This document shows positions 6,582-40,926 of a stretch of DNA of 64,000 bases, piece by piece (positions within the stretch are counted from its first letter, which is position 1; the number at the start of each line of letters is the position of its first letter). Position numbers and translations under genes: made by a program. The notes below the pieces were generated by a model that saw only the letters and a program-made list of their open reading frames with translations, searched no databases and was not told the DNA's origin. Source of the stretch: a virus (Duplodnaviria > Heunggongvirae > Uroviricota > Caudoviricetes); IMG/VR virus record IMGVR_UViG_3300049919_000280, positions 19,682 to 83,681 of that record. The stretch is one strand, 5' to 3'.

Positions 6582-6608
6582 ATGCGTTCATCTTCTTATA
6601 GGATTATT

Positions 6609-10395: not shown

Positions 10396-10587
10396 ATGAT
10401 GCGATACTACGTGGATAGTGAAGGGCAAATTAAGGACGATTCGGTTCCACCTGCTGGTTATTATTTCAGTTATGAGGATGATGGTACCTATGAATCTATC
10501 CTAATCGTTAACGAAACTGATTTTGAGATCGTTGCAGAATATTGTATCTGGGACTCCCTCGAAGAACTTAAGGCTGCAATAAAGTGA
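10396..10587 (+). CDS. hypothetical protein (63 aa)
   Basis: RBS aggag 6 nt upstream of ATG 10396. Confidence 0.5.
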   Translation: MMRYYVDSEGQIKDDSVPPAGYYFSYEDDGTYESILIVNETDFEIVAEYCIWDSLEELKAAIK

Positions 10588-10949
10588 GACATATTAACAT
10601 CGCATTAGTTTGTGCCGAACGATCCACGTTCAAGCAGAGAATTGGGGCTGTAGTTTTTAAGGGCTCTAGGATTCTTGGAACTGGATTCAACCAGACCAAT
10701 AGGCACCAAAGCTTGGTCAAGACCTCATCTTGGCCCGGTTCTGTGCATGCTGAAGTTTCTGCAATTGCGGATGCCATCAGGAATTACAAAGACGTTCGTG
10801 GTGCTGATATGCTGGTCGTTAGATTAAAGAGGACTGGTGATATGGGGTTGGCTATGCCATGCGAGGCATGTTACAATGTTTTGAAGTCTGTTGGAATCCG
10901 GAGAGTCAATTTTTCCGATGTTGATGGATTTGGCTGCATCACTTTTTAG
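10584..10949 (+). CDS. CMP/dCMP deaminase family zinc-binding protein (121 aa)
   Basis: HAEVSAI ... PCEAC zinc-ligand motifs. Confidence 0.6.
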   Translation: MRHINIALVCAERSTFKQRIGAVVFKGSRILGTGFNQTNRHQSLVKTSSWPGSVHAEVSAIADAIRNYKDVRGADMLVVRLKRTGDMGLAMPCEACYNVLKSVGIRRVNFSDVDGFGCITF

Positions 10950-17459: not shown

Positions 17460-17761
17460 TGAGAAAAAGTTTCAAAAAAGAAATCAAAAGAGTTTATCTA
17501 GAAGGTAACTTATTGGAGGTTAAGAACCTCATTGATGAATTGATCGAAATTCATGGGGCTTCCGCCACGCTAGAAGAAACAGAGCAATACTATATGTACG
17601 AGAATACCCCGGACAAGTACATCGCTCTATTCAAAATGGTAGAGGAAACCGAGGCTGAAATGGTGGTTCGTATCGCAAACGAAACTAAATTGAAACAAGA
17701 TCAAGATAAGCATGACCGTGCGCTACTTGAACAACTCAAGAAAAAACTAGGAGAGAAATAA
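17459..17761 (+). CDS. hypothetical protein (100 aa)
   Basis: TAATG overlap. Confidence 0.5.
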   Translation: MRKSFKKEIKRVYLEGNLLEVKNLIDELIEIHGASATLEETEQYYMYENTPDKYIALFKMVEETEAEMVVRIANETKLKQDQDKHDRALLEQLKKKLGEK

Positions 17762-18270
17762 TGGCATTAGAAATCGAAAGAAAATGGCTGATCAATCGAA
17801 TCCCAAATGGAATTCAGGATGGGTTCAGCATCAATGAAATTCGTCAAGCATACGTGCTAAACAAAGCACATACGGTGCTTCGAGTGCGTTCAATCAGAGA
17901 ACACCAAGACGGCGAAATGTTCAATGAGTATGGAGTCATTACAGTCAAAGGCCCATCTGATGTTGAAAACGCACCTAGGGAATATGAAATGGAGATTCCT
18001 ATCGATCTGGCCAATAATCTAATATCAGGATGCAATGTAGTTTTGCTGAAGCGTCGGCACAACATTCCATACGGCGAGCATTTAATTGAACTGGATATCT
18101 TTGAAGGTAAATTGAATGGGCTTATCGTCGCAGAGGTTGAGTTCTCCGGATTGGATGATAGGGATTCTTTCGTTGCACCTGATTGGTTTGGTCTCGAAGT
18201 AACAGGAATGCACACATATGCAAATTCTAACTTGATTAAGTTGGATAAGGCACCGGAAGAAATTCAATGA
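17761..18270 (+). CDS. CYTH-domain protein (triphosphate tunnel metalloenzyme family)
   Basis: The N-terminal EIERKW signature (ExExK) is characteristic of CYTH/CyaB-type enzymes. Confidence 0.55.
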   Translation: MALEIERKWLINRIPNGIQDGFSINEIRQAYVLNKAHTVLRVRSIREHQDGEMFNEYGVITVKGPSDVENAPREYEMEIPIDLANNLISGCNVVLLKRRHNIPYGEHLIELDIFEGKLNGLIVAEVEFSGLDDRDSFVAPDWFGLEVTGMHTYANSNLIKLDKAPEEIQ

Positions 18271-19497: not shown

Positions 19498-19680
19498 ATG
19501 ATGGCTAAAGTAATCGGGTTTGATGAAAAGGTGTATAAGAAATTCACTTGTCGAGATTGCGGTGCGATTGTTCAATATGCACCTAATGAAGAAAAGTGGA
19601 ACGGTCTGCGCGATGAAGGAACGCAGATTTTCGGGCTCGATTGCCCAAATTGTGGCAAATTCCATAGGACGAATCCGTGA
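19498..19680 (+). CDS. zinc-ribbon small protein (60 aa)
   Basis: CRDCG ... CPNCG. Confidence 0.5.
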   Translation: MMAKVIGFDEKVYKKFTCRDCGAIVQYAPNEEKWNGLRDEGTQIFGLDCPNCGKFHRTNP

Positions 19681-19928
19681 AACCGTGCCCGTTTTGCGGT
19701 AAAGAGGTTGATATGGAAGACCCAGATACTTGCTATCCAACTGGAACCGGTTGGAAGATTTTTAAGAACGGCGAAGATGAAATGCGTTCATATCACAACT
19801 TCAGAGACGTACCAAAAGAACAATGGTGCTATTCGTTGCATTGCTTACCGCATGCTGGCGGGTGTGGTGCTGAAATGCACGGTGATAGCAAAGAAGAAGT
19901 GATTGAAAATTGGAATCGAAGAACATGA
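19677..19928 (+). CDS. Lar-family (restriction alleviation) like protein (83 aa)
   Basis: N-terminal MKPCPFCG and C-terminal EEVIENWNRR resemble Lar-family proteins. Confidence 0.5.
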   Translation: MKPCPFCGKEVDMEDPDTCYPTGTGWKIFKNGEDEMRSYHNFRDVPKEQWCYSLHCLPHAGGCGAEMHGDSKEEVIENWNRRT

Positions 19929-20116
19929 AAACAAAGTTTAACTATGGTGTGGGGCATTATTGGGACGAGGGTGAGGGTTCAGTTGGACTCTACACTTACC
20001 ACAATGATATGTTCTTTGGCACGATGAAAGAGGCAAAGAAGTTTCGTGAGTATGTGAAGAAACAGAGTCCAGATCGTGAGTGGAAAATCTTTCAATTGGT
20101 GGAGGTGCCAGAATGA
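19925..20116 (+). CDS. hypothetical protein (63 aa)
   Basis: ATGA overlaps at both ends. Confidence 0.45.
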   Translation: MKTKFNYGVGHYWDEGEGSVGLYTYHNDMFFGTMKEAKKFREYVKKQSPDREWKIFQLVEVPE

Positions 20117-20580
20117 ATACTTTTATCAAAGCACCTGAGCGGTTCGTGAGAACCACCAGACACGACAAACGACCAACCATATTTCTGGCCGGCGGAATCA
20201 CTGGGTGTCGCAACTGGCAACAAGATGTTGAGAATAAACTCTCTGACAACCTTGATGCTGTAATATTCAATCCTAGACAAGCAGACTTCGATGTTCGCGA
20301 TCCTAAAGGTAGCGAGAAGCAAATTGAATGGGAACATTATCACCTAGAAATTGCCGAATACGTCCTGTTCTGGTTTCCTGCAGAAGGGCAATGCATGATC
20401 ACCCTATTCGAATTGGGTAAGTGCCTTGCCGGTGGAAAGAAGGTGATTCTTGGGTGTCATCCAGACTACGTGAGATATATCGACGTGGTAGTTCAATCGA
20501 GATTGATGCAACCTGATATTATGATTGCCGAAGACCTAGACGAACTTGTTGCCTTTATTGAGTATGCGGCATATCGGTAA
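20113..20580 (+). CDS. nucleoside 2-deoxyribosyltransferase-like protein (155 aa)
   Basis: The pattern IFLAGGITG ... W ... E ... LF resembles the Nuc_deoxyrib_tr-like (DUF4406) fold. Its final codons lie inside repeat copy 2. Confidence 0.5.
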   Translation: MNTFIKAPERFVRTTRHDKRPTIFLAGGITGCRNWQQDVENKLSDNLDAVIFNPRQADFDVRDPKGSEKQIEWEHYHLEIAEYVLFWFPAEGQCMITLFELGKCLAGGKKVILGCHPDYVRYIDVVVQSRLMQPDIMIAEDLDELVAFIEYAAYR

Positions 20581-20674
20581 AAGTTATTTGTTTTCAATGA
20601 GTTATATTAATGGTTGACGGATACCCTTGCATTTGTTAATATTCGTTATCGAAAAGTAAACGAGGCAACAAAAT
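20563..20674 (+). repeat. 112-bp perfect direct repeat, copy 2
   Basis: Identical to 19359-19470. The two copies bracket 1.1 kb carrying the Zn-ribbon, Lar-like, 63-aa and NDT-like genes. Confidence 0.9.
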
Positions 20675-20843
20675 GCGTATTTTTGAATTGGTTGGATTCT
20701 ACGATGGTGGGGAAGAACCAGAATACCGTAAAATATGTGCTTCATTAGAAGAGTCCGAAGCACAAATGCGGATTGAGATTCAAGCTTACACGTATAAAGG
20801 TGAGTGCAAATGGGAGTTTAAGATAAATGAGGTTGAATTATGA
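20673..20843 (+). CDS. small protein (56 aa)
   Basis: ATG directly after the repeat. Confidence 0.4.
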   Translation: MRIFELVGFYDGGEEPEYRKICASLEESEAQMRIEIQAYTYKGECKWEFKINEVEL

Positions 20844-21013
20844 AGAATCATGATGAAAATGAGTTGGCTGCACTGAAAGAAGAATTTAACGCCTTGATGG
20901 GCAAGTCAATGACGGTTGGTGAACGATTTAGCAATGAGGGGCAGGCAAAGATTGACCGAATTTGCGATCTGCGCGACATACTAAACCTGTGGAATTTTGA
21001 GGATCGGGCATGA
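20840..21013 (+). CDS. small protein (57 aa)
   Basis: ATGA overlap. Confidence 0.4.
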   Translation: MKNHDENELAALKEEFNALMGKSMTVGERFSNEGQAKIDRICDLRDILNLWNFEDRA

Positions 21014-21381
21014 AACGAGAAACAAAATCAGAACGGTTGGCTAGGCTCGAAGCAATTCGAGAAGCTGAAGCTGCTGTTGAGAAAGCACAGTATCCCATGA
21101 CCTTGATGGAAACCATGATGCTCGCTAGTAAAGCTGGTGCTAGCATCTTCGTGGAGGATGTGTCCACATTCAGTGTTACCATCACAGACCAGTGGGATGA
21201 CAGGGTTGAATTTTTTGTTGGAGTAGAACATTCCCAAGCATATGTCGACTCACTCGATCAATTGCGATATACTGCACTATCTAGGATTGAGAAGGAAGCA
21301 GCGGCAAAGGCGTTGTATGACGCTCGGTTAGCCGCACTAGCAAAATTGACTAATGCAGAACGAGAAATTCTAGGAGTTTGA
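21010..21381 (+). CDS. hypothetical protein (123 aa)
   Basis: ORF. Confidence 0.55.
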   Translation: MKRETKSERLARLEAIREAEAAVEKAQYPMTLMETMMLASKAGASIFVEDVSTFSVTITDQWDDRVEFFVGVEHSQAYVDSLDQLRYTALSRIEKEAAAKALYDARLAALAKLTNAEREILGV

Positions 21382-21382
21382 A

Positions 21383-22186
21383 ATGAGTGTAAAATTATTT
21401 GGTGGGAATCAGTTCATCGAGCTTAAATGGTGGGATTTCCCTGCAGGCGAGCGTGGGGTTAAGATCGTTGATCCGTTGGATATTGAGCGATACAAGTCAT
21501 TCACGGTGCATTGCTTGTTCAAGGGTTCGAGCGACCTGATTGATGTTATGCTTCTGGTAAATGCCTGCCGTAATGTTATGGGAACGGTGAAGTTGCGTCT
21601 GCAGATTCCATATTTTCCTTATGCTCGGCAGGATCGGGTTTCTGTTGCAGGAGAATCGTTTTCATTGCAGATTGCTGCGGATGTCATCAAGTCATGCAAC
21701 TTCTATGAGGTTGAAGTCTGGGATGCACATAGTGACGTTCTTGCTGGAATGTTTCCAGCAGGTGTCTTGAAGAATAAGACACAAGCTGAACTGGCAGATA
21801 TCTTTTTCATTCTAGGCGGATATTCTTCTGATCAGGTTGCCATCATTTCACCTGACGCTGGAGCCCTGAAGAAAATTTATGCGGTTGCCAAGCGGATCAA
21901 TTGTGATGTAATTTGTGCAAGCAAGAATCGTGATCCGAAGACTGGCAATATCACTGAGACGACGATTGACAGCAGTGAGTTTCATCGGTATGATAGAATG
22001 GTAATTGTGGATGATATCTTAGATGGCGGAAAAACATTTTTGGATTTGGGTAATCTCATTCGAAAAACATATTCCGGAGAACTTGGGTTGCACGTAACAC
22101 ACGGGCTATTTACCAAGGGTAAGGATGCGCTTCTGGAAAATTTTGATGGTATTAGCGCGGCCATCGACTACACTGAAACTAATTGA
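21383..22186 (+). CDS. truncated ribose-phosphate pyrophosphokinase (Prs) homolog; candidate ADP-ribose pyrophosphokinase (Adps)
   Basis: VKLFGGNQFIEL, IPYFPYARQDRV, IISPDAGAL and VIVDDILDGGKTF align with E. coli Prs MKLFAGNATPEL, IPYFGYARQDRR, VVSPDIGGV and VLVDDMIDTGGTL. It is 267 aa versus 315. Confidence 0.7.
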   Translation: MSVKLFGGNQFIELKWWDFPAGERGVKIVDPLDIERYKSFTVHCLFKGSSDLIDVMLLVNACRNVMGTVKLRLQIPYFPYARQDRVSVAGESFSLQIAADVIKSCNFYEVEVWDAHSDVLAGMFPAGVLKNKTQAELADIFFILGGYSSDQVAIISPDAGALKKIYAVAKRINCDVICASKNRDPKTGNITETTIDSSEFHRYDRMVIVDDILDGGKTFLDLGNLIRKTYSGELGLHVTHGLFTKGKDALLENFDGISAAIDYTETN

Positions 22187-22197
22187 GGAGTAATATT

Positions 22198-23946
22198 ATG
22201 GGACGATTTAAGCAGACTGCATTGACTTCAGTGGATAGTTACAAAACGGCACATGCCGATATGCTACCCACTGGAACTGAGCAAATTTACAGCAACTTCA
22301 CTCCTCGTTCAATGAAGCACTTCAATGTGCCGGAAGAGTACAAGGCAGACAAGAAGATCGTTTGGGTTGGCCTGCAGGCATTCATGTACGAGTTGAAGGA
22401 AGTGTGGCAAGAGACCTTCTTCGAGCGTCATGTTGATGCGGTATGTAATGAATTTTCTGAATTCGTCGCCCCGTTTGCTGGCCCTCGTGGCTTCAACATT
22501 GAACGGGTTCGCGCATTACACAAACTTGGGTATCTGCCAATTCGCATCAAGTCACTACCAGAAGGTTCGCGGGTTAATGTTGGAGTTCCATGCCTGACTA
22601 TCACCAACACGGTAAGCGAATTTGCATGGCTTACGAACTATCTGGAAACTTGGATTAGTTGCGAAATGTGGAAGATTTGTACGAGTGCCACTACCGCTGC
22701 AGTGTATCGCAAGATTTGTGAGAAATATGCAGACCTTACTGGTGGATCGAAGGAATTCATTCAATGGCAATGCCATAATTTTGCGGATCGTGGGCAAAGT
22801 GGAATCCAAGATGCTGCGAAGTCTGGTGTTGGTCACTTGCTGAGTTTCACCGGCACAGATTCATTGTCTTCTGTTAAGCTGATCAATGACGTTTATGAAG
22901 GCAAAAAGACATTTGTTGGCGGTAGTGTTCCTGCCTCCGAACATATGGTGCAATGTGCAGGTTCGATGGAAGGTGAGTTGGAAACATATCGTCGCCTGAT
23001 CAAGGATTACCCTAGCGGTGTTGTTTCTATCGTGTCAGATACTTGGAATTTTTGGGATGTCATCACTAAGACTGCAGCTACTCTGAAAGAAGAAATTCTT
23101 GCTCGGGTTCCTGATCAGTTTGGATTGGCAAAGGTCGTGTTCCGCCCAGATTCTGGTGATCCGGTTGATATCATTTGTGGCGATGAAATTCGTGATATTT
23201 CTAGCTATCTAACCGAAAATTCGACAATTGAAGCGATAGGTGCGGAAGCGGTAGATTTCCTAAGCGGTGCAGTATTTATCAAAACCCCTCATGGTGAGTG
23301 TGGTGACAGCAGCCCCTCAGCGATATTCAAATGTTTCGGTAAATACTACAAAGTAACAGCTAACATCGAATGGAATCGTTACGACAAGCAGTATTATTAC
23401 ATCGATGGCAGCAACCTAGAATCAATTGAAGAAGTCCAATTGTCTCCGGCGCAAAAGGGCGCAGTAGAATGTCTCGCTGAAATTTTTGGCACCACCACTA
23501 ATGACAAGGGATTCAAAACTCTGAATCAACGAGTTGGTTTGATTTATGGCGACAGCATCACTCCGCAGCGTGCCATTGCGATTTTCGAGCGACTTGCAGC
23601 TAAGGGATATGCCAGCGACAATATCGTTTTTGGGGTGGGTAGTTATACTTACTCCTATGTAACTCGGGACTCACTAGGTTTCGCAATGAAGGCAACTAAC
23701 GTCGTTATCAATGGCGAAAGTCGAGCGATTTTCAAAGACCCAGCCACTGACACTGACAAGACCAAGAAGTCTGCAAAGGGTCTTCTTCGAGTTGATCGAG
23801 TTGGCAAGGACTTTGTGCTGCGGGATAACGTCACTGCAGAAGAGGAAGCTGGTGGCGAGTTGAAAGTCGTGTTTGAAAACGGCAACATCTTGTCGAGAGA
23901 GAACTTTGCGGACATGCGCAGCCGTTTGGAATTGGCTTCTCAGTAG
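22198..23946 (+). CDS. nicotinamide phosphoribosyltransferase family enzyme (Nampt/NadV-like; candidate Namat)
   Basis: The N-terminal TDSYKTAH motif matches Nampt TDSYK. Large (582 aa) and directly 3' of the Prs homolog. Confidence 0.6.
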   Translation: MGRFKQTALTSVDSYKTAHADMLPTGTEQIYSNFTPRSMKHFNVPEEYKADKKIVWVGLQAFMYELKEVWQETFFERHVDAVCNEFSEFVAPFAGPRGFNIERVRALHKLGYLPIRIKSLPEGSRVNVGVPCLTITNTVSEFAWLTNYLETWISCEMWKICTSATTAAVYRKICEKYADLTGGSKEFIQWQCHNFADRGQSGIQDAAKSGVGHLLSFTGTDSLSSVKLINDVYEGKKTFVGGSVPASEHMVQCAGSMEGELETYRRLIKDYPSGVVSIVSDTWNFWDVITKTAATLKEEILARVPDQFGLAKVVFRPDSGDPVDIICGDEIRDISSYLTENSTIEAIGAEAVDFLSGAVFIKTPHGECGDSSPSAIFKCFGKYYKVTANIEWNRYDKQYYYIDGSNLESIEEVQLSPAQKGAVECLAEIFGTTTNDKGFKTLNQRVGLIYGDSITPQRAIAIFERLAAKGYASDNIVFGVGSYTYSYVTRDSLGFAMKATNVVINGESRAIFKDPATDTDKTKKSAKGLLRVDRVGKDFVLRDNVTAEEEAGGELKVVFENGNILSRENFADMRSRLELASQ

Positions 23947-23956
23947 GAGATTTGAC

Positions 23957-24166
23957 ATGGATCGATTCGATTTAGAGCAGCAGATTATGGAATGTTGGAA
24001 CGTTACTTCTGACATTAAGACATTGGCCGAGGGTGTGCTGGAAACTGATATATCAAAGGATCAGGTGGCTAATGTTCTTATTGGTATGGAAGAACTTTAT
24101 AACATTCGATTCGACAAACTCTTCCGCACATACGAACAGTTGATCCGGAGCCATCAACTCAAGTAA
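23957..24166 (+). CDS. hypothetical protein (69 aa)
   Basis: ORF. Confidence 0.45.
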   Translation: MDRFDLEQQIMECWNVTSDIKTLAEGVLETDISKDQVANVLIGMEELYNIRFDKLFRTYEQLIRSHQLK

Positions 24167-24188
24167 GTTAAAATATACTTAAAAACAA

Positions 24189-24226
24189 GGAGTTACGTGA
24201 TTATTTGCGTAACTCCTTTTCTTTTG
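24189..24226 (+). terminator. terminator ggagttacg-N10-cgtaactcc plus TTTTCTTTTGG, followed by an extended -10 TGgTATTAT and a CCGAAACATCGG leader with no ORF
   Basis: 9-bp perfect stem. The unit that follows (24227-24300) has no start codon, so it may be an orphan leader or small RNA. Confidence 0.6.
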
Positions 24227-24663: not shown

Positions 24664-25176
24664 ATGGCACAATTAGTGATTATTCGTGGATTGCCCGGAA
24701 GTGGTAAGACCACCATCGCGAAGAAAGAATTTCCGAATCATTTCCATACAGAAGCCGACCAGTGGTTCATCGACCCGCAGACTGGTGAGTACCGATTCGA
24801 CCCAACCAAATTGAATGGTGCCCATCGTGGGTGTCAGGCTGCGACTTTCAAGGCACTGCAATCAGGACATGACGTGGTCGTCACCAACACTTTCACTCAG
24901 AATTGGGAATTCGATTCCTATTTCGATATTTGCGACGAATTGGAAATTGAGGACATTCTGGTAATCGAAATGAAAACCCAGTACCAGAATATTCATGGTG
25001 TCCCTGAAGAAAAGATGGAAGTCATGCGCCGTCGCTGGCATGCATGGGGCTCATTCGAAGTTCCTGAATGTGTTCAGTATCAGGAAGTTTGGCCGATTCG
25101 AACCGATGAGCAAAAGAACTGCGACTGCATGTCAGAAGATCACTTCGACCCTGAAGCTGGAGTGATGCCATCATGA
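24664..25176 (+). CDS. P-loop kinase, polynucleotide 5'-kinase-like (170 aa)
   Basis: The N-terminus LVIIRGLPGSGKTTIAKK resembles the T4 Pnk kinase domain ILTIGCPGSGKSTWAR. Confidence 0.55.
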   Translation: MAQLVIIRGLPGSGKTTIAKKEFPNHFHTEADQWFIDPQTGEYRFDPTKLNGAHRGCQAATFKALQSGHDVVVTNTFTQNWEFDSYFDICDELEIEDILVIEMKTQYQNIHGVPEEKMEVMRRRWHAWGSFEVPECVQYQEVWPIRTDEQKNCDCMSEDHFDPEAGVMPS

Positions 25177-26257: not shown

Positions 26258-26428
26258 ATGATGCCATTCCACGAACAGAGAGACGCGATTGCTTGGGTTC
26301 CTGCCTGCGGTGGTACGGAGACCCCCTTCACGAAGGAAGGGAAGCAATATCAGTACATGTGGAATTACCGCACTGGCGAGCATGCATACTACTGCATCAC
26401 CGACGACATTTTTGTAGATGGGATTTAA
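26258..26428 (+). CDS. small protein (56 aa)
   Basis: Cassette leader ccggagcaaagatcATG. Confidence 0.45.
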   Translation: MMPFHEQRDAIAWVPACGGTETPFTKEGKQYQYMWNYRTGEHAYYCITDDIFVDGI

Positions 26429-26429
26429 A

Positions 26430-27104
26430 ATGACAAGTAAAAAGATTTGGTTTTGTGCAGATTTACATCTGGGGCATCGTAACATCATGAAGTTTTCCCC
26501 AGATAGAATCGATATTCTCGGGTTAGATAAGTTCTACTCGAAGGAGTTGATAGCTCGTGCCTTTCAGGCGACGACCCTTAAACAAGATAGCCAAGCAGAG
26601 ATTGCGGAAGCACAGAATATATTGAGTCGCGCTCGGGATAAGATGGACGAACTGATCATCAAACAGTGGAACGAGACCATTGGATTTTCTGATGACGTGT
26701 ATATCCTTGGTGATGTATCATTCTGGAAAGCGGATAAAACTGAACGGTTGTTGAATCAGATGCATGGTCGGTTGCACCTAATCCGGGGTAACCATGATCA
26801 TGGCACGGACATGCTGGATCGCTGGGAATTGGTTAAGGATTATGCTGAAATTAAGTTCGATGGCATTCCGACTATCATGTTTCATTTCCCTATCCAGGAA
26901 TTTTGTATGCAACATCGAGGGGCAATTCATATTCATGGGCATACCCATAACAACCTACCAAAGCATCTGGGGAAGGTGTTAGATGTCGGAATGGAATCTC
27001 TCGGTAAGATCGCAATAGAATGGGCAGAATTAAAGGATTATATGGCAACCCGCCCGATTACACCACATGGCGATTCGGACGAAAATCAAACTCACGGATA
27101 TTGA
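26430..27104 (+). CDS. calcineurin-like metallophosphoesterase (224 aa)
   Basis: DLHLGH ... GNHD ... HGHTH metal-ligand motifs. Confidence 0.65.
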   Translation: MTSKKIWFCADLHLGHRNIMKFSPDRIDILGLDKFYSKELIARAFQATTLKQDSQAEIAEAQNILSRARDKMDELIIKQWNETIGFSDDVYILGDVSFWKADKTERLLNQMHGRLHLIRGNHDHGTDMLDRWELVKDYAEIKFDGIPTIMFHFPIQEFCMQHRGAIHIHGHTHNNLPKHLGKVLDVGMESLGKIAIEWAELKDYMATRPITPHGDSDENQTHGY

Positions 27105-28375: not shown

Positions 28376-28657
28376 GTGAAGAAAAAGAAATTATTTGATG
28401 TATTCGGTAAAGAAGTAAAATTACCTAAATGTAAAGTATATCTTTCGCGCAGGAATCTTGAGGCGTTGATATCTAAGCTTGATCGTGTTGCTGCAGGAGA
28501 GTCGTCGGAGTGTGCCATCATAAAGCGAGATAACGCACATCCAGAATATGCTCAGTCGATGAAGGAGATTATGGTGGTTGCAGTCGAGAACGAAAAATAC
28601 TACGTGGATCGTCCTGCTGGGCTGATGATGCCTGCTGATGTGAAGACCATATCGTGA
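28376..28657 (+). CDS. hypothetical protein (93 aa), GTG start
   Basis: ORF. Confidence 0.5.
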   Translation: MKKKKLFDVFGKEVKLPKCKVYLSRRNLEALISKLDRVAAGESSECAIIKRDNAHPEYAQSMKEIMVVAVENEKYYVDRPAGLMMPADVKTIS

Positions 28658-29301
28658 ATACCGACTTCAAAAAGCGAGTCGTATTTGTTGATATCGACGG
28701 CCCGATGGTTTCGGATCGCACTATCCGATTCGACCCAAAGAATAAGTCGAACCATCCAACTGTTCAGGACTTCATTGCGAAGCATTGTGACGAAGGAGAC
28801 TTTGCCGCTCGTGTAATCACATACATCCACTTCGACACAGTTGCCGTTGGTATGATGAATGAGTTATATGATCAATATCCGTATGAAATGGTGTTGTCGA
28901 GTTCGTGGTTCCATATCATCAACGAGAAGCAAACTCGTGCCCTATTTGAATACAATGGAATTAAAGCTCCATGGCATAAACGATGGAACACCCCTCGCAG
29001 ATTCAATTCCACAAGGGGAGAGGAAATTTCTTGGTGGCTGAAAGAAAATTCGTCGTATGACTACATCGTATTGGACGATCCTAGTAGTTTTCCAGATTCG
29101 TCTGATCCTAATGTTCTTCGCCAATTTGATATCGATCCAGACTATTGCATTATTGTCGATCCTTTCATTGGTCTTGAATATCACCACTTTGACCAGATGA
29201 AGAACATTTTTGCAGGGGAATCAATAGCCGCGAGGCACGGTAAGATGGTGGCAAAGGTGGTAAACGAGCAGATTTACCAAAAAACCCTTACAGATCAGTG
29301 A
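28654..29301 (+). CDS. HAD-like phosphatase (215 aa), GTG start
   Basis: The N-terminal VVFVDIDGPMVSD (DxDG) resembles the phosphatase domain of T4 Pnkp and 5'-nucleotidases. Confidence 0.45.
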   Translation: MNTDFKKRVVFVDIDGPMVSDRTIRFDPKNKSNHPTVQDFIAKHCDEGDFAARVITYIHFDTVAVGMMNELYDQYPYEMVLSSSWFHIINEKQTRALFEYNGIKAPWHKRWNTPRRFNSTRGEEISWWLKENSSYDYIVLDDPSSFPDSSDPNVLRQFDIDPDYCIIVDPFIGLEYHHFDQMKNIFAGESIAARHGKMVAKVVNEQIYQKTLTDQ

Positions 29302-29379: not shown

Positions 29380-29631
29380 ATGTTATCAACCAACCAGTTC
29401 AGATTCGATAAGGCTTCTAGAAATTTGGTCGCTTCGGTTAATACGTTTAATGAGAGTTATCTTGGTGGGTTTCCGGTGACCATGGAAATTCATTCGCCGA
29501 AGACCGGTAATGTTTGCCGGTTCTTCATCGATGCCGCCGCTGCTGAGCGCAATGAGTATTGGGATGGTGAAGAAATGCAGTATATTTCTGCGGAAACTGA
29601 TGTCCGCGTTATTTTACATTGTGGAGAGTAA
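29380..29631 (+). CDS. hypothetical protein (83 aa)
   Basis: Cassette leader. Confidence 0.55.
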   Translation: MLSTNQFRFDKASRNLVASVNTFNESYLGGFPVTMEIHSPKTGNVCRFFIDAAAAERNEYWDGEEMQYISAETDVRVILHCGE

Positions 29632-29633
29632 AG

Positions 29634-30677
29634 ATGAGTCGTGAAAACAATCAAATGAGCTACATCGCGGAAATCACCCATCTGGTGCCGATCCGCGATG
29701 CTGATGCCATCGAAAAAGCAGTCATCAACGCGGGGTGGCCTGTTGTGGTTAAGAAGGGCGAATTCAACGTTGGCGATTTGGTAATATACATGGAAATCGA
29801 CAGCTGGTGCCCGACTGAGTTGGCACCGTTCCTATCAAAGGGAAACGAACCTCGCGAATACAATGGGGTAAAGGGAGAGCGTCTGCGTGGTATTAAATTG
29901 CGCGGACAGCGCAGCCAAGGTCTCGTCCTACCACTCCAAAAGAAAATGGGCGGTTGGCTGTTGCCTATGCCTTACGATCAAACGCTAGTCGAAAAAGGCC
30001 AATTGATCGGCGATGTTCTTGGAATTCAGAAGTGGGAAGCCCCAGAAGGATTCTCGTCTGGTAATGCTAAGGGCAATTTCCCATCTGTTGTGCCGAAGAC
30101 TGATGCAGAACGCATCCAGAACCTTCGCCATGAACTGCAAGACTGGATCGAGCGGGGTCTTACCTTTGAAGTCACTGAAAAGCTACATGGTACTTCGTTC
30201 ACTGCTCTTGTCGTAGATGGTGAATTCGGTGTATGTTCGCGGAATCTACTTCTCCAAGAAGGAGAAGGTACATATTGGTCTGTAGCTGAAAAGCATGGCC
30301 TCAAGGAAAAGATGCTTGCCATGGGTCGAAACTTCGCGGTGCAAGGCGAAATCATTGGGCCGGGAATCCTCGGAAACCAGTATGGATTGCCTGAATCCGA
30401 AGTGTTCGTGTTCAATGTGTTTGACATTGACAAAAAAGGATACGTCACTCCGGAAGAACGGCATAGCATTATCGAAGAACTTGAATTGAAGCATGTACCT
30501 ATCATCTGCAAATGGCATAGTATGAGCGAACATACTATCGATTCATTACTTGAACTTGCAGAAGGAAAGAGTGTGCTCAACAGCAGCGAACGTGAGGGAT
30601 TGGTATTCAAGTGTATCGAAGACCCTAGCATTCAGTTCAAGAGTGTGAGTAATCGCTGGTTGGATAAGGAAAAGTGA
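29634..30677 (+). CDS. ATP-dependent RNA ligase, Rnl2/Rnl5-like, with N-terminal extension (347 aa)
   Basis: Motif I EKLHGTSF (KxHG as in T4 Rnl2 KIHGTN), then FAVQGEIIG, EGLVFK and a KxK tail. The nucleotidyltransferase module is C-terminal behind a roughly 170-aa N-domain, as in DraRnl-type ligases. Confidence 0.6.
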   Translation: MSRENNQMSYIAEITHLVPIRDADAIEKAVINAGWPVVVKKGEFNVGDLVIYMEIDSWCPTELAPFLSKGNEPREYNGVKGERLRGIKLRGQRSQGLVLPLQKKMGGWLLPMPYDQTLVEKGQLIGDVLGIQKWEAPEGFSSGNAKGNFPSVVPKTDAERIQNLRHELQDWIERGLTFEVTEKLHGTSFTALVVDGEFGVCSRNLLLQEGEGTYWSVAEKHGLKEKMLAMGRNFAVQGEIIGPGILGNQYGLPESEVFVFNVFDIDKKGYVTPEERHSIIEELELKHVPIICKWHSMSEHTIDSLLELAEGKSVLNSSEREGLVFKCIEDPSIQFKSVSNRWLDKEK

Positions 30678-31609: not shown

Positions 31610-32407
31610 ATGAATAAAATGTTTAAGTTTGGTATTGCTGCTCTTGTTATTGCGTCTGCTATTGGTTGCTCAAGAATTGAATCTGGTACTGTCGGTGTTC
31701 GTGTTAATGCAAGTAAAGAAATTCAGGGTTCAGAGCTTCAGGTTGGATCGTGGAATCAGACCATCATTGGTGACGTGCTTGAGTTTCCGGTTCGCGACCT
31801 AACCATCAATCTGGAAAACAAAACACCGCTAACTGCTGATAACTCCGCACTTGCTGACTTCGACGTTACTGTTGTTTATGGAATTAACCCTGCATCTGTA
31901 GCAGAAATCTACACCAAGAAATCCAAGGCTTTCCACGCATACGATAGGGGCGATATTTACCTGATGTATAACTACGTTTCGACTCTTGTCAATAACGCAT
32001 CATATAAAGCAGTTCGTGGTTACAAGTCACTTGAAGTTGCAGACAACCGTCAGAAAATCGAAGGAGAAATCCGCGACCTAGTTACCGCACAGTTGAAGTC
32101 AGAAGGTCTTGATACTTCTATCACATTGACTGTTGTTCAGGTTCGGAACGTCACGCCAAATGCTGCGATTCTTGCTGCTGCAACCGAGTATGTCCGCAGC
32201 CAAAACGAAATTCTTATTAAATCTGCTGAAGTGAAAGTAGCAAAACTCGAAGCAGAAAGAATGGCAGCATTATCAATTAATAGTCAGCAATCTATTGCCT
32301 ACATGAATGCCCAAGCAAACGTAATTATTGCCAATGCGGTGAAAGACGGAAAGATATCTACTATTCTGATTCCGCATGGTATGACGGTTCTTGGATCACT
32401 GAAGTAA
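31610..32407 (+). CDS. SPFH/band-7 domain lipoprotein (265 aa)
   Basis: Lipobox LVIASAIGC at the N-terminus; SPFH-like core (DFDVTVVYGINP). Confidence 0.5.
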   Translation: MNKMFKFGIAALVIASAIGCSRIESGTVGVRVNASKEIQGSELQVGSWNQTIIGDVLEFPVRDLTINLENKTPLTADNSALADFDVTVVYGINPASVAEIYTKKSKAFHAYDRGDIYLMYNYVSTLVNNASYKAVRGYKSLEVADNRQKIEGEIRDLVTAQLKSEGLDTSITLTVVQVRNVTPNAAILAAATEYVRSQNEILIKSAEVKVAKLEAERMAALSINSQQSIAYMNAQANVIIANAVKDGKISTILIPHGMTVLGSLK

Positions 32408-37649: not shown

Positions 37650-37856
37650 ATGGAAATTACGAATAAGGGCGTGGTATTTGAGTCGTATCGATCAGTCAAT
37701 CCGAGTGAAGGGTACTCTTGTTTCACTGATGAAGATGGCGCAAAACTGCTGATCAAAACTACAACCTTGGTTAAAATGTATGAGATTGTCAAGTATGATC
37801 TTGAACGCCGAAATGGATGGGCTGGACTAATGGCTACTCTGGAGGAAGAGCGGTGA
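37650..37856 (+). CDS. hypothetical protein (68 aa)
   Basis: RBS gagggaaatATG. Confidence 0.5.
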   Translation: MEITNKGVVFESYRSVNPSEGYSCFTDEDGAKLLIKTTTLVKMYEIVKYDLERRNGWAGLMATLEEER

Positions 37857-40258: not shown

Positions 40259-40474
40259 ATGACACCAACGTTCAAATGGTCCGGTAACGAGACCAATAAA
40301 GAAGGCATCGCTGAATTTAAGATCGGAAACATGACTACGACGATCCCACTTAACGATTTCAGCACGGCACTCATGATTTCCAAAATGAATATCAATGCAT
40401 ATGAGGATGGAATTTACGAAGGTATTGAGCGAGTTTCATCCCTAGTTAAAACCGCAATGGCGAATGTTAAATGA
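40259..40474 (+). CDS. hypothetical protein (71 aa)
   Basis: ORF. Confidence 0.45.
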   Translation: MTPTFKWSGNETNKEGIAEFKIGNMTTTIPLNDFSTALMISKMNINAYEDGIYEGIERVSSLVKTAMANVK

Positions 40475-40926
40475 TTAAAATTATTGAAGGTGATTTGTTG
40501 GCAGTCGAACGTGGGTTCATGGTTCAAGGCTGCAATGCTCACGGATATGGCGGTGCCGGTATCATCATGCAATTCCGAAAGCATTATCCAGAATCGTATG
40601 AGGTATATCGAAAATCAAATCTGACTATTGGGCACATTTCAACCTGTCCAGTCAATGTAGATAAAACAAAATGGGTGGTTAACGCCATCACACAGCAATC
40701 AACCGGTATCGGCAAGCAGGTATCATATGATGCAATCGAATCGTGCTTTGAGCGAATCGTAAATTTTCATGCATATGTCGAAGCCGACACTGGAATCAAC
40801 CTACCGATCTGCTTTCCTATGATAGGCGCAGGATTAGGAGGAGGTTCATGGCCCATCATCGAAAAAATAATTGATGAAACGGTGCCAAACTCTATAGAAA
40901 AACATCTTTATATCTTCAAGGGGTAA
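40471..40926 (+). CDS. macro domain protein (ADP-ribose binding/processing), 151 aa
   Basis: GCNAHGYGGAGI and ICFPMIGAGLGGGSWP resemble macro motifs VNAAH..L.GGGGV and IAFPAISTGVYG. Confidence 0.55.
   Translation: MIKIIEGDLLAVERGFMVQGCNAHGYGGAGIIMQFRKHYPESYEVYRKSNLTIGHISTCPVNVDKTKWVVNAITQQSTGIGKQVSYDAIESCFERIVNFHAYVEADTGINLPICFPMIGAGLGGGSWPIIEKIIDETVPNSIEKHLYIFKG

What the first reader, a model, noticed from the sequence alone, without database searches (positions are those of the whole stretch)
21383..23946. Adjacent Prs-homolog plus Nampt-family genes, matching the NARP1 (Adps + Namat) NAD+ reconstitution anti-defense pathway
A truncated ribose-phosphate pyrophosphokinase homolog (267 aa; all Prs core motifs present) is translationally coupled to a 582-aa Nampt-family enzyme (TDSYK motif). 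This two-gene arrangement is the architecture described for phage NARP1, in which Adps pyrophosphorylates ADP-ribose and Namat then adds nicotinamide to regenerate NAD+. NARP1 counters NAD-depleting defenses such as Thoeris, DSR/SIR2 and SEFIR. Nearby genes add ADP-ribose/NAD-linked functions: a macro domain (40471-40926), DUF4326 (2097-2366) and a nucleoside 2-deoxyribosyltransferase-like protein (20113-20580). The alternative is an ordinary PRPP + NadV salvage pair.
Basis: partly seen in the sequence, partly recalled or inferred. Interest (0 to 1): 0.7.

Follow-up and report, generated by a model that had tools for sequence, protein, structure and literature searches.

The report
Phage NAD+ rebuilding operon (NARP1)
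An uncultured T4-like phage carries the known two-gene NARP1 cassette (Adps plus Namat), which most likely rebuilds NAD+ from ADP-ribose and nicotinamide after bacterial defences destroy it; this is a correct identification of a known system, not a new one.

Summary
A 267-aa Prs-like gene (21383-22186) is followed 11 nt later by a 582-aa Nampt-like gene (22198-23946).

Both pass the published sequence tests for NARP1:
- **Prs-like protein.** It has the Adps hallmarks: catalytic Lys181, conserved acceptor-site residues, an HSDV motif, a K-x-R-D-x-K-T-G-x-I hairpin and the PP loop DDILDGGKTF. It lacks the Prs C-terminal alpha11-alpha12 module.
- **Placement.** It groups with four biochemically or genetically validated Adps (Bas63, SPbetaL1, FADO, ICP1) and apart from 19 cellular Prs (194/200 NJ bootstraps). 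It scores 255 bits on an Adps profile against 101 on a Prs profile.
- **Nampt-like protein.** It carries the Namat-specific adenine clamp (GSYTYSYVTRD, and SMKH in the loop). KVP40 Nampt has GGGLLQQLDRD at that site.
- **Gene order.** In 79 of 80 related viral contigs a Namat homologue lies downstream of the Adps homologue on the same strand.
- **Other routes.** No Nmnat or PnuC homologue is in the window.

This is a new, divergent member (33-43% identity to validated enzymes) of a known pathway found in about 4% of phages.

The macro-domain, deoxyribosyltransferase-like and DUF4326 genes exist, but their link to the operon is loose. Enzyme activity is inferred, not shown.

The parts
21383..22186 (+). 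adps: ADP-ribose pyrophosphokinase (Prs-like, 267 aa). Key residues: Phe19, Arg82, His116 (in AHSDV), Asp158, catalytic Lys181 (SKNRDPKTGNI hairpin), PP loop Asp210-Phe219 (DDILDGGKTF).
   Evidence: Pfam and PHROG hits. Signature alignment with ICP1, Bas63, SPbetaL1 and FADO Adps against cellular Prs. NJ tree split 194/200. Profile scores 254.8 vs 101.0 bits. Below the TIGR01251 cut-off.
22185..22190 (+). GAGGAG ribosome-binding site for namat. It overlaps the adps stop codon (22184-22186) and lies 7 nt upstream of ATG 22198.
   Evidence: Read directly from the sequence.
22198..23946 (+). namat: nicotinamide ADP-ribose transferase (Nampt-like, 582 aa). Catalytic core Asp13, Tyr15, Phe195, Arg198, Asp221, His249, Arg316, Asp318. 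Clamp loop Ser38-Met-Lys40-His41. Clamp helix Gly481-Asp491 (GSYTYSYVTRD). About 80 extra residues around aa 331-417.
   Evidence: Pfam, PHROG and NCBIfam hits. Best solved-structure matches are 9W5X/9W5W, the SPbetaL1 Namat (3.5e-116), against human Nampt at 1e-56. Motif alignment with validated Namat and KVP40 NadV.
20673..21381 (+). Three small co-directional ORFs of unknown function (20673-20843, 56 aa; 20840-21013, 57 aa; 21010-21381, 123 aa). They overlap each other by 4 nt, and the last ends one base before adps. Probably co-transcribed, but not part of the conserved cassette.
   Evidence: ORF list. No credible Pfam or PHROG match: for the 123-aa ORF; the 56-aa ORF has no hit and the 57-aa ORF only a sub-threshold one (Diphthami_syn_2, E 0.0066, 16.4 bits vs cut-off 23.2). 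No homologues beside NARP1 in 80 related viral loci.
23957..24166 (+). 69-aa ORF of unknown function between namat and the terminator-like hairpin.
   Evidence: Called as a gene on the Logan contig. No Pfam hit. Not conserved beside NARP1 elsewhere.
24187..24218 (+). Terminator-like hairpin (14-bp stem, 4-nt loop, T-rich tail). Probable 3' end of the transcription unit that holds adps-namat.
   Evidence: Consensus scan. The total number of such sites in the region is not above the shuffle expectation, so this rests on the unusual stem length.
20614..20642 (+). Sigma-70-like promoter candidate (TTGACG-17-TAATAT, with TG) upstream of the small-ORF/adps/namat block.
   Evidence: Consensus scan. 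Weak evidence: 9/12 match, and the site count equals the shuffle expectation.
40471..40926 (+). Macro-domain protein (151 aa), 16.5 kb downstream. Possible ADPR-1''-phosphate phosphatase (Adpp-like) feeding NARP1. Association not established.
   Evidence: Pfam Macro 3e-5. 33% identical (E 3e-12) to macro genes that sit between Adps and Namat in viral loci L112/L114. Best PDB matches are generic macro domains; yeast Poa1p (6LFQ) was not among them.
20080..20580 (+). Nucleoside 2-deoxyribosyltransferase-like protein (166 aa from GTG 20080; 155 aa from ATG 20113), four genes upstream of adps. Association with NARP1 is uncertain.
   Evidence: Pfam Nuc_deoxyri_tr2 7.6e-21. Homologues lie between Adps and Namat in L167 and just after Namat in L166, i.e. 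in 2 of 80 loci.

Best explanation
The two genes are a NARP1 cassette.

**Inferred mechanism** (by homology to Bas63, SPbetaL1, FADO and ICP1):
1. Bacterial NADases of SIR2, TIR or SEFIR type cleave NAD+ and release free ADP-ribose and nicotinamide.
2. Adps (21383-22186) transfers the beta,gamma-pyrophosphate of ATP onto the 1'' hydroxyl of the terminal ribose of ADP-ribose, giving ADPR-pyrophosphate and AMP. Lys181 on the catalytic hairpin is the key residue.
3. Namat (22198-23946) uses the Nampt catalytic core to displace that pyrophosphate with nicotinamide and form NAD+ directly. Its aromatic clamp (Tyr483, Tyr487, Lys40/His41) holds the adenine and so favours ADPR-PP over PRPP.
4. The phage thereby restores the NAD+ pool and escapes NAD+-depleting defences such as type I Thoeris, DSR1/2, SIR2-HerA and SEFIR.

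**Shown here:** the genes, their order, the family-specific motifs, the clade membership and the conserved pairing.

**Inferred:** substrates, products and the anti-defence role.
For: **Adps.**
- The acceptor and catalytic residues defined in the ICP1 Adps structures (PMC13586617) are conserved: Arg87, His121, Asp161, Lys185, Asp212, Asp213 and Asp216 correspond to window Arg82, His116, Asp158, Lys181, Asp210, Asp211 and Asp214.
- The motifs are of Adps type. HSDV replaces the Prs HA-x-Q. The hairpin is K-N-R-D-P-K-T-G-N-I against Prs KRRPRANVS. The PP loop is DDILDGGKTF, against Bas63 DDICDGGRTF and Prs DDMIDTGGTL.
- The protein ends about 36 residues before the C-terminus of E. coli Prs (alpha11-alpha12 missing). 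It also lacks the N-terminal helix and the basic RF-loop motif.
- In an NJ tree of 107 sequences, 88 phage-type proteins (the window and four validated Adps included) separate from 19 cellular Prs of six phyla plus human in 194/200 bootstraps.
- An Adps profile built only from sequences less than 40% identical to the window protein gives 254.8 bits; the Prs profile gives 101.0. Leave-one-out controls classify correctly.
- TIGR01251 gives 104.7 bits, below the cut-off of 113. SPbetaL1 Adps scores 106 and E. coli Prs 423.

**Namat.**
- The SCH motif GSYTYSYVTRD fits the published GS-X-phi-X-phi-X-phi-TRD with aromatic X (PMC12774641). The SCL has Lys at position 3 followed by His.
- Nearly all of 65 Adps-linked viral Namats share the motif, while KVP40 NadV has GGGLLQQLDRD.
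- The match to SPbetaL1 Namat crystal structure 9W5X is 392 bits, against 196 bits for human Nampt.

**Context.**
- 79/80 IMG/VR contigs with an Adps homologue have a Namat homologue downstream on the same strand.
- The neighbourhoods of the closest relatives are otherwise unrelated, so the pair moves as a cassette.
- No NatV or PnuC homologue is in the window, and no nucleotidyltransferase domain is in any ORF of 140 aa or more.
Against: - Nothing biochemical was tested.
- Pairwise identity to validated enzymes is low for Adps: 33.5% to Bas63 over 179 aa and 29% to SPbetaL1. Pairwise BLAST bits to SPbetaL1 Adps (64) barely exceed those to E. coli Prs (61). Membership therefore rests on profiles, motifs and the tree.
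- ICP1 Phe92, one of three adenine contacts, aligns with Ser87 in the window protein. It is not conserved in Bas63 or SPbetaL1 either.
- Position phi-2 of the clamp helix is Ser, where most Namats have Gln or Asn.
- The tree is neighbour-joining on saturated distances, and archaeal class III Prs were not sampled.
- Only 64 kb of a genome probably longer than 150 kb was visible, so an Nmnat gene elsewhere cannot be excluded.
- SPbetaL1 Namat retains PRPP-dependent NMN synthesis in vitro, so some NMN production is possible.
Confidence: 0.85

Rival explanations
1. Ordinary salvage pair. The Prs-like enzyme makes PRPP from ribose-5-phosphate. The Nampt-like enzyme makes NMN from PRPP and nicotinamide. 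NMN is then adenylylated by a host enzyme (NadR or NadD) or by a phage Nmnat encoded outside the window, which would be a NARP2-like route.
For: - NCBIfam and Pfam name both proteins in this way. The Nampt-like protein passes the NF006629 cut-off.
- SPbetaL1 Namat can make NMN from PRPP in vitro.
- Most of the genome is unseen. Attempts to extend the window added only about 2.5 kb on one side and a giant structural gene on the other.
Against: - The Prs-like protein fails the Prs family cut-off.
- It lacks the Prs regulatory and C-terminal modules and carries Adps-type donor-site motifs.
- It separates from 19 cellular Prs at 97% bootstrap.
- The Nampt-like protein carries the adenine clamp that KVP40 NadV and human Nampt lack.
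- No Nmnat homologue is in 64 kb.
- In the published survey, SPbetaL1 Adps gave no product in the assay for canonical PRPP synthesis, and no phage carried both NARP1 and NARP2.
Confidence: 0.06
2. The chemistry is NARP1, but the main role is housekeeping rather than counter-defence. The cassette would top up NAD+ for phage NAD-consuming enzymes, or recycle ADP-ribose produced by phage or host turnover, whether or not a defence system is present.
For: - The cassette sits in a long run of early or middle metabolic and RNA-repair genes, not in an obvious anti-defence island.
- NARP2 raised NAD+ even without a defence system.
- T4-like phages are known to use NAD+ for ADP-ribosylation (general knowledge; not tested here).
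Against: - In Bas63 infection, ADPR-PP appeared only when an NADase defence system was active. Deleting NARP1 affected plaque formation only on defence-carrying hosts.
- Free ADP-ribose, the substrate, is produced in quantity mainly by NADases.
Confidence: 0.08
3. A diverged Adps-like kinase with a different acceptor (for example a modified ADP-ribose or another nucleotide sugar), paired with a transferase that builds an NAD+ analogue rather than NAD+.
For: - The window Adps belongs to a short (about 265 aa) metagenomic subclade at most 59% identical to it, with no characterised member.
- ICP1 Phe92 is not conserved.
- The clamp helix has an unusual Ser at phi-2.
Against: - All residues shown to contact the terminal ribose and pyrophosphate, and all nicotinamide and ribose-phosphate contacts of Namat, are conserved.
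- The variable positions also vary among validated enzymes.
Confidence: 0.03

Closest known systems
NARP1 of Escherichia phage Bas63 (JohannRWettstein) gp79-gp80 (Osterman et al. 2024)
   Same: - Gene order is the same: Adps then Namat.
- Adps has the same PP-loop type (DDICDGGRT vs DDILDGGKT) and the same hairpin.
- Both Namats are long forms (593 vs 582 aa), with an insertion of about 80 aa at the same site and the same clamp helix (GSYTYQYMTRD vs GSYTYSYVTRD).
   Different: - Identity is only 33.5% (Adps) and 39% (Namat).
- The window Adps is 26 aa shorter, at both the N- and C-termini.
- The host phage is T4-like, not a Felixounavirus.
- The insertions align poorly with each other.
NARP1 of Bacillus phage SPbetaL1 (biochemically characterised; Namat structures 9W5X/9W5W)
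   Same: - The Namat catalytic core and clamp residues are conserved, and it is the best solved-structure match (3.5e-116).
- The Adps catalytic Lys (K162 vs K181) is conserved.
   Different: - SPbetaL1 Namat (491 aa) lacks the insertion and uses Arg40 in the clamp loop; the window protein has Lys40-His41.
- The SPbetaL1 Adps PP loop is DDLSSFGGT.
- Identity is 29% (Adps) and 42-48% (Namat).
Vibrio phage ICP1 NrsA/NrsB (Adps structures, NAR 2026)
   Same: - Arg87, His121, Asp161, Lys185, Asp212, Asp213 and Asp216 are all conserved.
- The alpha11-alpha12 module is lost in both.
- The HSDV motif is shared.
   Different: - ICP1 Phe92 aligns with Ser87.
- The PP loop is CDGAAS in ICP1 against LDGGKT in the window protein.
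- ICP1 Namat is the short form (488 aa).
NARP2 of Vibrio phage KVP40 (NadV Nampt + NatV Nmnat)
   Same: Both are carried by T4-like phages, use a Nampt-fold enzyme and rebuild NAD+ to escape NAD+ depletion.
   Different: - KVP40 NadV lacks the clamp motif (GGGLLQQLDRD) and is only 28-36% identical to the window Namat over the two aligned segments.
- No NatV homologue is in the window, and a Prs-like gene is adjacent instead.
NARP1-AP of Vibrio phage Gary (Adps-Adpp-Namat; Osterman et al. 2026 preprint)
   Same: The window encodes a macro-domain protein. That protein is homologous to macro genes embedded in Adps-macro-Namat operons of viral contigs L112/L114.
   Different: - Here the macro gene lies 16.5 kb from the cassette, outside the 'within two genes' definition.
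- It did not match yeast Poa1p in the solved-structure search.
- Gary Adpp itself could not be retrieved for comparison.

Membership tests
Adps (ADPR-PP synthetase, NARP1 step 1) | PRPS-like two-domain fold | tested here: met
   Pfam Pribosyltran_N + Pribosyltran. TIGR01251 E 4.3e-30 over aa 12-245. PDB Prs matches down to 1.9e-15. Sequence-level test only; no structure was predicted.
Adps (ADPR-PP synthetase, NARP1 step 1) | Catalytic Lys on the beta-hairpin (ICP1 K185, SPbetaL1 K162), and acceptor-site residues Arg87, His121, Asp161, Asp212, Asp213, Asp216 | tested here: met
   The window protein has Lys181, Arg82, His116, Asp158, Asp210, Asp211 and Asp214. They are invariant in the alignment with validated Adps.
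Adps (ADPR-PP synthetase, NARP1 step 1) | Remodelled PP loop and hairpin (donor site) conserved among Adps and different from Prs | tested here: met
   PP loop DDILDGGKTF against Bas63 DDICDGGRTF, ICP1 DDICDGAASF and Prs DD[MI]xD[TS]xGT[LIM]. Hairpin KNRDPKTGNI against Prs KRRPRANVS. HSDV against Prs HAxQ. Compared across 19 cellular Prs.
Adps (ADPR-PP synthetase, NARP1 step 1) | Loss of the C-terminal alpha11-alpha12 module and degeneration of the Prs allosteric sites | tested here: met
   The protein ends about 36 residues before the C-terminus of E. coli Prs. The basic RF-loop motif (RRVRSAR) is replaced by VSVAGES. The N-terminal helix is absent.
Adps (ADPR-PP synthetase, NARP1 step 1) | Adenine of ADPR held by Phe18', Arg87 and Phe92 (ICP1) | tested here: inconclusive
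   Phe19 and Arg82 are conserved. Phe92 aligns with Ser87, but this position also differs in Bas63, SPbetaL1 and FADO.
Adps (ADPR-PP synthetase, NARP1 step 1) | Falls in the phage Adps clade, separate from cellular Prs | tested here: met
   NJ split of 88 phage-type vs 19 cellular sequences, 194/200 bootstraps. Adps profile 254.8 vs Prs profile 101.0 bits. Caveat: NJ only, and no archaeal class III Prs were included.
Adps (ADPR-PP synthetase, NARP1 step 1) | A Namat homologue in the immediate vicinity (97% of the clade) | tested here: met
   Namat starts 11 nt downstream. The same holds in 79/80 related viral contigs.
Adps (ADPR-PP synthetase, NARP1 step 1) | Converts ADPR + ATP to ADPR-PP + AMP and not ribose-5-phosphate to PRPP | not testable with these tools
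   Needs purified protein and LC-MS.
Namat (nicotinamide ADPR-transferase, NARP1 step 2) | Nampt-like catalytic core (SPbetaL1 Asp13, Tyr15, Phe189, Arg192, Asp215, catalytic His, Arg306, Asp308) | tested here: met
   The window protein has Asp13, Tyr15, Phe195, Arg198, Asp221, His249, Arg316 and Asp318.
Namat (nicotinamide ADPR-transferase, NARP1 step 2) | Selectivity-clamp helix motif GS-X-phi1-X-phi2-X-phi3-TRD with aromatic X | tested here: met
   G481-S-Y-T-Y-S-Y-V-T-R-D491. Phi-2 is Ser (usually Gln or Asn), still small and polar. KVP40 NadV has GGGLLQQLDRD.
Namat (nicotinamide ADPR-transferase, NARP1 step 2) | Selectivity-clamp loop with Arg, Lys or Tyr at position 3 (with Lys or Tyr, the stacking role passes to position 4) | tested here: met
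   Ser38-Met39-Lys40-His41. The loop is 7 residues longer than in SPbetaL1.
Namat (nicotinamide ADPR-transferase, NARP1 step 2) | Prefers ADPR-PP over PRPP and makes NAD+ directly | not testable with these tools
   Needs a competition assay.
Canonical class I ribose-phosphate pyrophosphokinase (Prs) | Passes the Prs family model and retains the allosteric and C-terminal elements | tested here: not met
   TIGR01251 104.7 < 113. All Prs equivalog models are far below their cut-offs (e.g. 79.7 vs 297). The C-terminal module is absent.
NARP2 (Nampt + Nmnat) | Nmnat (NatV-like) gene in the same phage, and a Nampt-clade enzyme without the adenine clamp | tested here: not met
   tblastn with KVP40 NatV gives a best E of 1.9. 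No nucleotidyltransferase domain is in any ORF of 140 aa or more. The clamp is present. Only the 64-kb window was searched.
NARP3 (PnuC-like transporter + NadR-like enzyme) | PnuC and NadR homologues | tested here: not met
   KVP40 PnuC and its NadR-like NatV give no significant tblastn hit. The AAA_33 kinase at 24664-25176 has no PDB match at E <= 0.01. It was not compared directly with a NadR kinase domain. The Bas30 proteins were not used as queries.
NARP1-AP (NARP1 with associated ADPR-1''-P phosphatase Adpp) | Macro-domain gene within two genes of the Adps-Namat pair | tested here: not met
   The only macro gene found (40471-40926) is 16.5 kb away. The genes within two positions of the pair have no credible Pfam hit: for the 123-aa ORF; the 69-aa and 94-aa ORFs have none and the 57-aa ORF only a sub-threshold Diphthami_syn_2 hit (E 0.0066, 16.4 bits vs cut-off 23.2).

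The most novel reading that the evidence does not exclude
The phage may run a dispersed, extended NARP1. The distal macro-domain protein (40471-40926) would act as an Adpp-like ADPR-1''-phosphate phosphatase. The nucleoside 2-deoxyribosyltransferase-like protein four genes upstream (20080-20580) would be a so-far undescribed accessory glycosidase or hydrolase that converts other NAD-derived products (cyclic or conjugated ADP-ribose) into linear ADP-ribose for Adps, by analogy with Adpp and RyDEP.

The lead is that homologues of this NDT-like gene sit between Adps and Namat in viral contig L167 and directly after Namat in L166. Macro homologues sit inside the operon in L112/L114.
Probability: 0.12. 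Interest if true: 0.5.

Novelty: new member of a known kind. Interest (0 to 1): 0.22.

Why it matters
NARP1 is an established phage counter-defence, present in about 4% of sequenced phages, so this instance changes no concept.

Its value is modest:
- It extends NARP1 to an uncultured T4-like phage. That lineage has no detectable DNA similarity (85% identity or more) to deposited phages.
- It supplies a very divergent Adps/Namat pair, 33-43% identical to characterised ones, and this pair still keeps every published signature. That supports using these signatures (HSDV, the K-x-R-D-x-K-T-G hairpin, the D-G-G-x-T-F loop and the C-terminal truncation for Adps; GS-aromatic-x-aromatic-x-aromatic-x-TRD for Namat) to re-annotate the many 'ribose-phosphate pyrophosphokinase / nicotinamide phosphoribosyltransferase' pairs in metagenomes.
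- It predicts that this phage's host population carries NAD+-depleting defences.

Tried and rejected
1. **Near-identity DNA search against 50,697 phage records.** No match. The phage is novel, so annotation could not be transferred.
2. **NCBIfam.** It has no Adps- or Namat-specific models. The Nampt model NF006629 does not discriminate, because validated Namats pass it too.
3. **PHROG 619 alone.** It is not discriminating: E. coli Prs also scores 193 bits. I therefore built my own Adps and Prs profiles with leave-one-out controls.
4. **The one allowed genome-contig scan, with E. coli Prs.** It returned only Gammaproteobacteria at 80-99% identity. Diverse cellular Prs were taken from the plasmid/chromid collection instead.
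5. **Extending the window to look for an Nmnat.** Only short Logan contigs were found: about 2.5 kb upstream, and a giant structural gene downstream.
6. **Retrieving Vibrio phage Gary Adpp for a direct comparison with the macro protein.** It was not among the listed hits. The Adpp-like status of the macro gene stays open.
7. **The AAA_33 kinase two genes downstream as a possible nicotinamide-riboside kinase.** It has no PDB match, and its PHROG neighbours are 'ATPase' and 'polynucleotide kinase'. It fits the adjacent RNA-repair genes better.
8. **The three small upstream ORFs and the 69-aa downstream ORF as conserved NARP1 accessories.** No homologue was found beside NARP1 in 80 loci.
9. **The 80-aa Namat insertion as a sign of a different family.** Rejected. 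About half of Adps-linked Namats, including functional Bas63 Namat, carry insertions of 20-120 aa at the same site.
10. **Not attempted.** I did not predict structures. The Adps structures were not matched in the PDB copy searched, and the Namat alignment needed for a good model would have cost another whole-database search for a side issue.

Full report
**Observation.** The window holds an ORF at 21383-22186 (+, 267 aa) and, after an 11-nt spacer, an ORF at 22198-23946 (+, 582 aa from ATG). A GAGGAG ribosome-binding site (22185-22190) overlaps the first gene's TGA stop and lies 7 nt before the ATG. An alternative TTG at 22183 would overlap the stop, but public gene calls use the ATG. ORF1 matches Pfam Pribosyltran_N and Pribosyltran, and PHROG 619 at 4.6e-67. 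ORF2 matches Pfam NAPRTase and, below its cut-off, NAMPT_N, and PHROG 448 at 1.2e-176. The N-terminal motif is VDSYK rather than TDSYK. The genes abut rather than overlap. The Prs motifs are present in a modified form.

**Setting.** The window comes from an uncultured T4-like phage. It encodes gp32, baseplate proteins gp5, gp6, gp25 and gp53, a Dda-like helicase, and a giant ORF that runs off the 3' end. It has no near-identity DNA match among 50,697 phage records. The exact Adps protein is on record on a 98.8-kb JGI contig and a Logan contig. GC content across the pair equals the window average.

**What defines NARP1.** Osterman et al. described Adps (a Prs-like enzyme; ADPR + ATP gives ADPR-PP) and Namat (a Nampt-like enzyme; ADPR-PP + nicotinamide gives NAD+). 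Adps forms a phage clade separate from Prs, and 97% of its members have a Namat next to them. NARP2 phages instead have a Nampt of a different clade plus an Nmnat, and no phage had both pathways. Two later structural papers give residue-level criteria.
- For Namat: a Nampt catalytic core, plus an adenine 'selectivity clamp' made of a variable loop (third residue Arg, Lys or Tyr) and a helix with the motif GS-X-phi-X-phi-X-phi-TRD, where X is aromatic.
- For Adps (ICP1 enzyme): conserved acceptor residues Arg87, His121, Asp161, Asp212, Asp213 and Asp216; catalytic Lys185 on a beta-hairpin; a remodelled PP loop conserved among Adps; loss of the C-terminal alpha11-alpha12 module; and degenerate allosteric sites.

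**Test of the Prs-like protein.** I fetched validated Adps from Bas63, SPbetaL1, FADO and ICP1, plus E. coli Prs. In the alignment the window protein keeps Phe19, Arg82, His116, Asp158, Lys181, Asp210, Asp211 and Asp214. It shares three Adps-type motifs that differ from all 19 cellular Prs examined:
- HSDV, against HA-x-Q and its variants in Prs
- the hairpin KNRDPKTGNI, against KRRPRANVS in Prs
- the PP loop DDILDGGKTF, against Bas63 DDICDGGRTF, ICP1 DDICDGAASF and Prs DD-x-x-D-T/S-x-G-T-L/I/M

It also lacks the Prs N-terminal helix, the basic RF-loop motif and about 36 C-terminal residues.

Pairwise BLAST alone does not decide the question: 90 bits to Bas63 Adps, 64 to SPbetaL1 Adps and 61 to E. 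coli Prs. Three family-level tests do.
1. The protein fails the NCBI Prs model TIGR01251 (104.7 < 113), as SPbetaL1 Adps does (106). E. coli Prs scores 423.
2. I built an NJ tree of 107 sequences: 88 phage-type proteins, and 19 cellular Prs from Gamma-, Beta- and Alphaproteobacteria, Bacillota, Actinomycetota, Cyanobacteriota and human, including divergent plasmid-borne forms. The cellular/phage split appears in 194 of 200 bootstraps. The window protein sits on the phage side with all four validated Adps. Order inside the clade is unresolved.
3. An Adps profile built only from 57 sequences less than 40% identical to the window protein gives 254.8 bits, against 101.0 for the cellular Prs profile. 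Leave-one-out controls put validated Adps and cellular Prs on the correct sides.

One published adenine contact (ICP1 Phe92) aligns with Ser87, but that position also varies among validated Adps.

**Test of the Nampt-like protein.** Its best solved-structure matches are 9W5X/9W5W, the SPbetaL1 Namat crystals, at 3.5e-116 and 392 bits. Human Nampt scores about 1e-56 and 196 bits. All catalytic-core residues are present: Asp13, Tyr15, Phe195, Arg198, Asp221, His249, Arg316 and Asp318. The clamp helix reads G481-S-Y-T-Y-S-Y-V-T-R-D491 and the clamp loop Ser38-Met-Lys40-His41. KVP40 NadV, the validated NARP2 Nampt, reads GGGLLQQLDRD at the helix. Among 65 Namat homologues that lie beside Adps homologues in viral contigs, nearly all keep GS-aromatic-x-aromatic-x-aromatic-x-TRD. 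The window's Ser at phi-2 is unusual but within the published definition. The protein is about 90 aa longer than SPbetaL1 Namat because of an insertion of about 80 aa between RPDSGDP and the next helix (aa ~331-417). This site is a hot-spot: about half of the family, including functional Bas63 Namat (593 aa), carries insertions of 20-120 aa there. The insertion is therefore no argument against membership.

**Context.** In 79 of 80 IMG/VR contigs found with an Adps alignment, a Namat homologue lies downstream on the same strand, usually within 150 nt. The nearest metagenomic relatives (52-55% identical Adps) sit in otherwise unrelated neighbourhoods, so the pair behaves as a mobile two-gene cassette. 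In the window the pair is preceded by three tightly packed small ORFs and followed by a 69-aa ORF. It is bracketed by a promoter-like site (20614-20642) and a strong hairpin with a T-rich tail (24187-24218). Site counts do not exceed the shuffle expectation, so the transcription unit is only suggested. None of these small ORFs recurs beside NARP1 elsewhere.

**The refuting conditions.** The Prs homologue does not cluster with canonical Prs. No Nmnat, NadR or PnuC homologue is in the window: tblastn with KVP40 NatV and PnuC gives best E-values of 1.9 and 0.3, and Pfam scans of all ORFs of 140 aa or more show no nucleotidyltransferase. The limit is that only 64 kb of a larger genome could be inspected.

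All three exist.
- *Macro domain.* A 2026 preprint shows that 15% of NARP1 operons include a macro-domain ADPR-1''-phosphate phosphatase (Adpp), which lets NARP1 overcome the aRES defence. The window's macro protein is 33% identical to macro genes lying between Adps and Namat in contigs L112/L114, and related to macro genes just downstream of Namat in L102, L103, L105 and L171. Here, however, it is 16.5 kb away. Its best PDB matches are generic macro domains rather than Poa1p. Distal macro genes are common in large phages. It does not meet the NARP1-AP definition, and a functional link is only possible.
- *NDT-like and DUF4326.* The NDT-like gene has homologues inside or beside NARP1 in 2 of 80 loci (L167, L166), and DUF4326 in 1 of 80. 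These are leads, not evidence.

**Mechanism and confidence.** The best-supported reading (0.85) is a functional NARP1. Adps pyrophosphorylates ADP-ribose released by host NADases, and Namat joins nicotinamide to it to regenerate NAD+, which counters Thoeris I, DSR1/2, SIR2-HerA and SEFIR-type defences. The genes, motifs, clade membership and pairing are shown here. Substrates, products and the anti-defence phenotype are inferred from homologues. Rivals are an ordinary PRPP/NMN salvage pair (0.06), NARP1 chemistry with a mainly housekeeping role (0.08), and a diverged acceptor specificity (0.03).

**Novelty.** This is a new and divergent member of a known kind. Interest is low (0.22). The most novel reading not excluded is a dispersed extended NARP1, with the macro and NDT-like proteins as feeder enzymes (probability about 0.12).

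Noticed in passing
window 4909-6342, 9445-10254, 17761-18270, 24664-25176, 26418-27104, 28654-29301, 29619-30677, 37817-38617: A scattered set of RNA-repair or tRNA-related genes surrounds the NARP1 pair: a TROVE/Ro60-like protein with a vWA domain, a Thg1-like tRNA-His guanylyltransferase, a CYTH domain, an AAA_33 P-loop kinase, two metallophosphoesterases, a HAD_SAK_2 ('Swiss army knife RNA repair') phosphatase, and an RNA ligase with a PHA02142 OB fold. Together they look like a phage RNA-repair toolkit, possibly against tRNA-cleaving defences.
   Followed up: no
window 23188-23448 (Namat aa ~331-417): Namat has an insertion of about 80 aa between the RPDSGDP strand and the following helix. 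The same site holds insertions of 20-120 aa in about half of Adps-linked Namats, including Bas63 Namat, while SPbetaL1, FADO and ICP1 have none. The insertions align poorly with one another, and their function is unknown.
   Followed up: partly
L167:4313-4780 and L166:6286-6777 (viral contigs); window 20080-20580: Homologues of the window's nucleoside 2-deoxyribosyltransferase-like protein lie between Adps and Namat in one viral contig and directly after Namat in another. This hints at a rare NARP1 accessory gene that is not described in the papers read.
   Followed up: partly
L112/L114:4516-4953; L102:5512-5970; L103:6421-6879; L105:7017-7475; L171:5184-5681: Macro-domain genes sit inside (Adps-macro-Namat) or just downstream of NARP1 in 6 of 80 related viral contigs, the NARP1-AP arrangement. 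Three of them (L102, L103, L105) are among the closest relatives of the window's cassette, whereas the window's own macro gene is 16.5 kb away.
   Followed up: partly
window 57939-64000 (runs off the end); L175:2662-12652: A giant ORF starts right after the gp6-like baseplate gene. It is at least 2020 aa in the window and at least 3399 aa on the overlapping Logan contig, with no Pfam hit on record. It may be a very large baseplate or tail-fibre protein.
   Followed up: partly
window 19677-19928 and 19498-19680: Two small zinc-ribbon proteins lie just upstream of the NDT-like gene. One resembles the Lar restriction-alleviation protein (Pfam Lar_restr_allev, 3e-6, just under its cut-off), which would be another possible anti-defence gene in the same early-gene block.
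   Followed up: no
L176:8797-10290 (ENA contig NODE_28_length_106261): In the contig that carries relative P0007, the Namat gene is called as two ORFs (198 aa with NAMPT_N, and 249 aa with NAPRTase). In Pectobacterium phages phiTE and CB7 the gene is interrupted by an HNH endonuclease. Namat therefore seems to be a recurrent target of splitting or homing elements.
   Followed up: no
window 31610-32407; L177:11692-12564: An SPFH/Band_7 protein lies 7.7 kb downstream of NARP1 in the window and 1.4 kb downstream of NARP1 in the unrelated contig of relative P0035. This may be coincidence.
   Followed up: no
window 10584-10949 and 6582-7901: A dCMP/cytidine deaminase and a Dda-like SF1 helicase are present, as is typical of T4-like early regions.
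   Followed up: no
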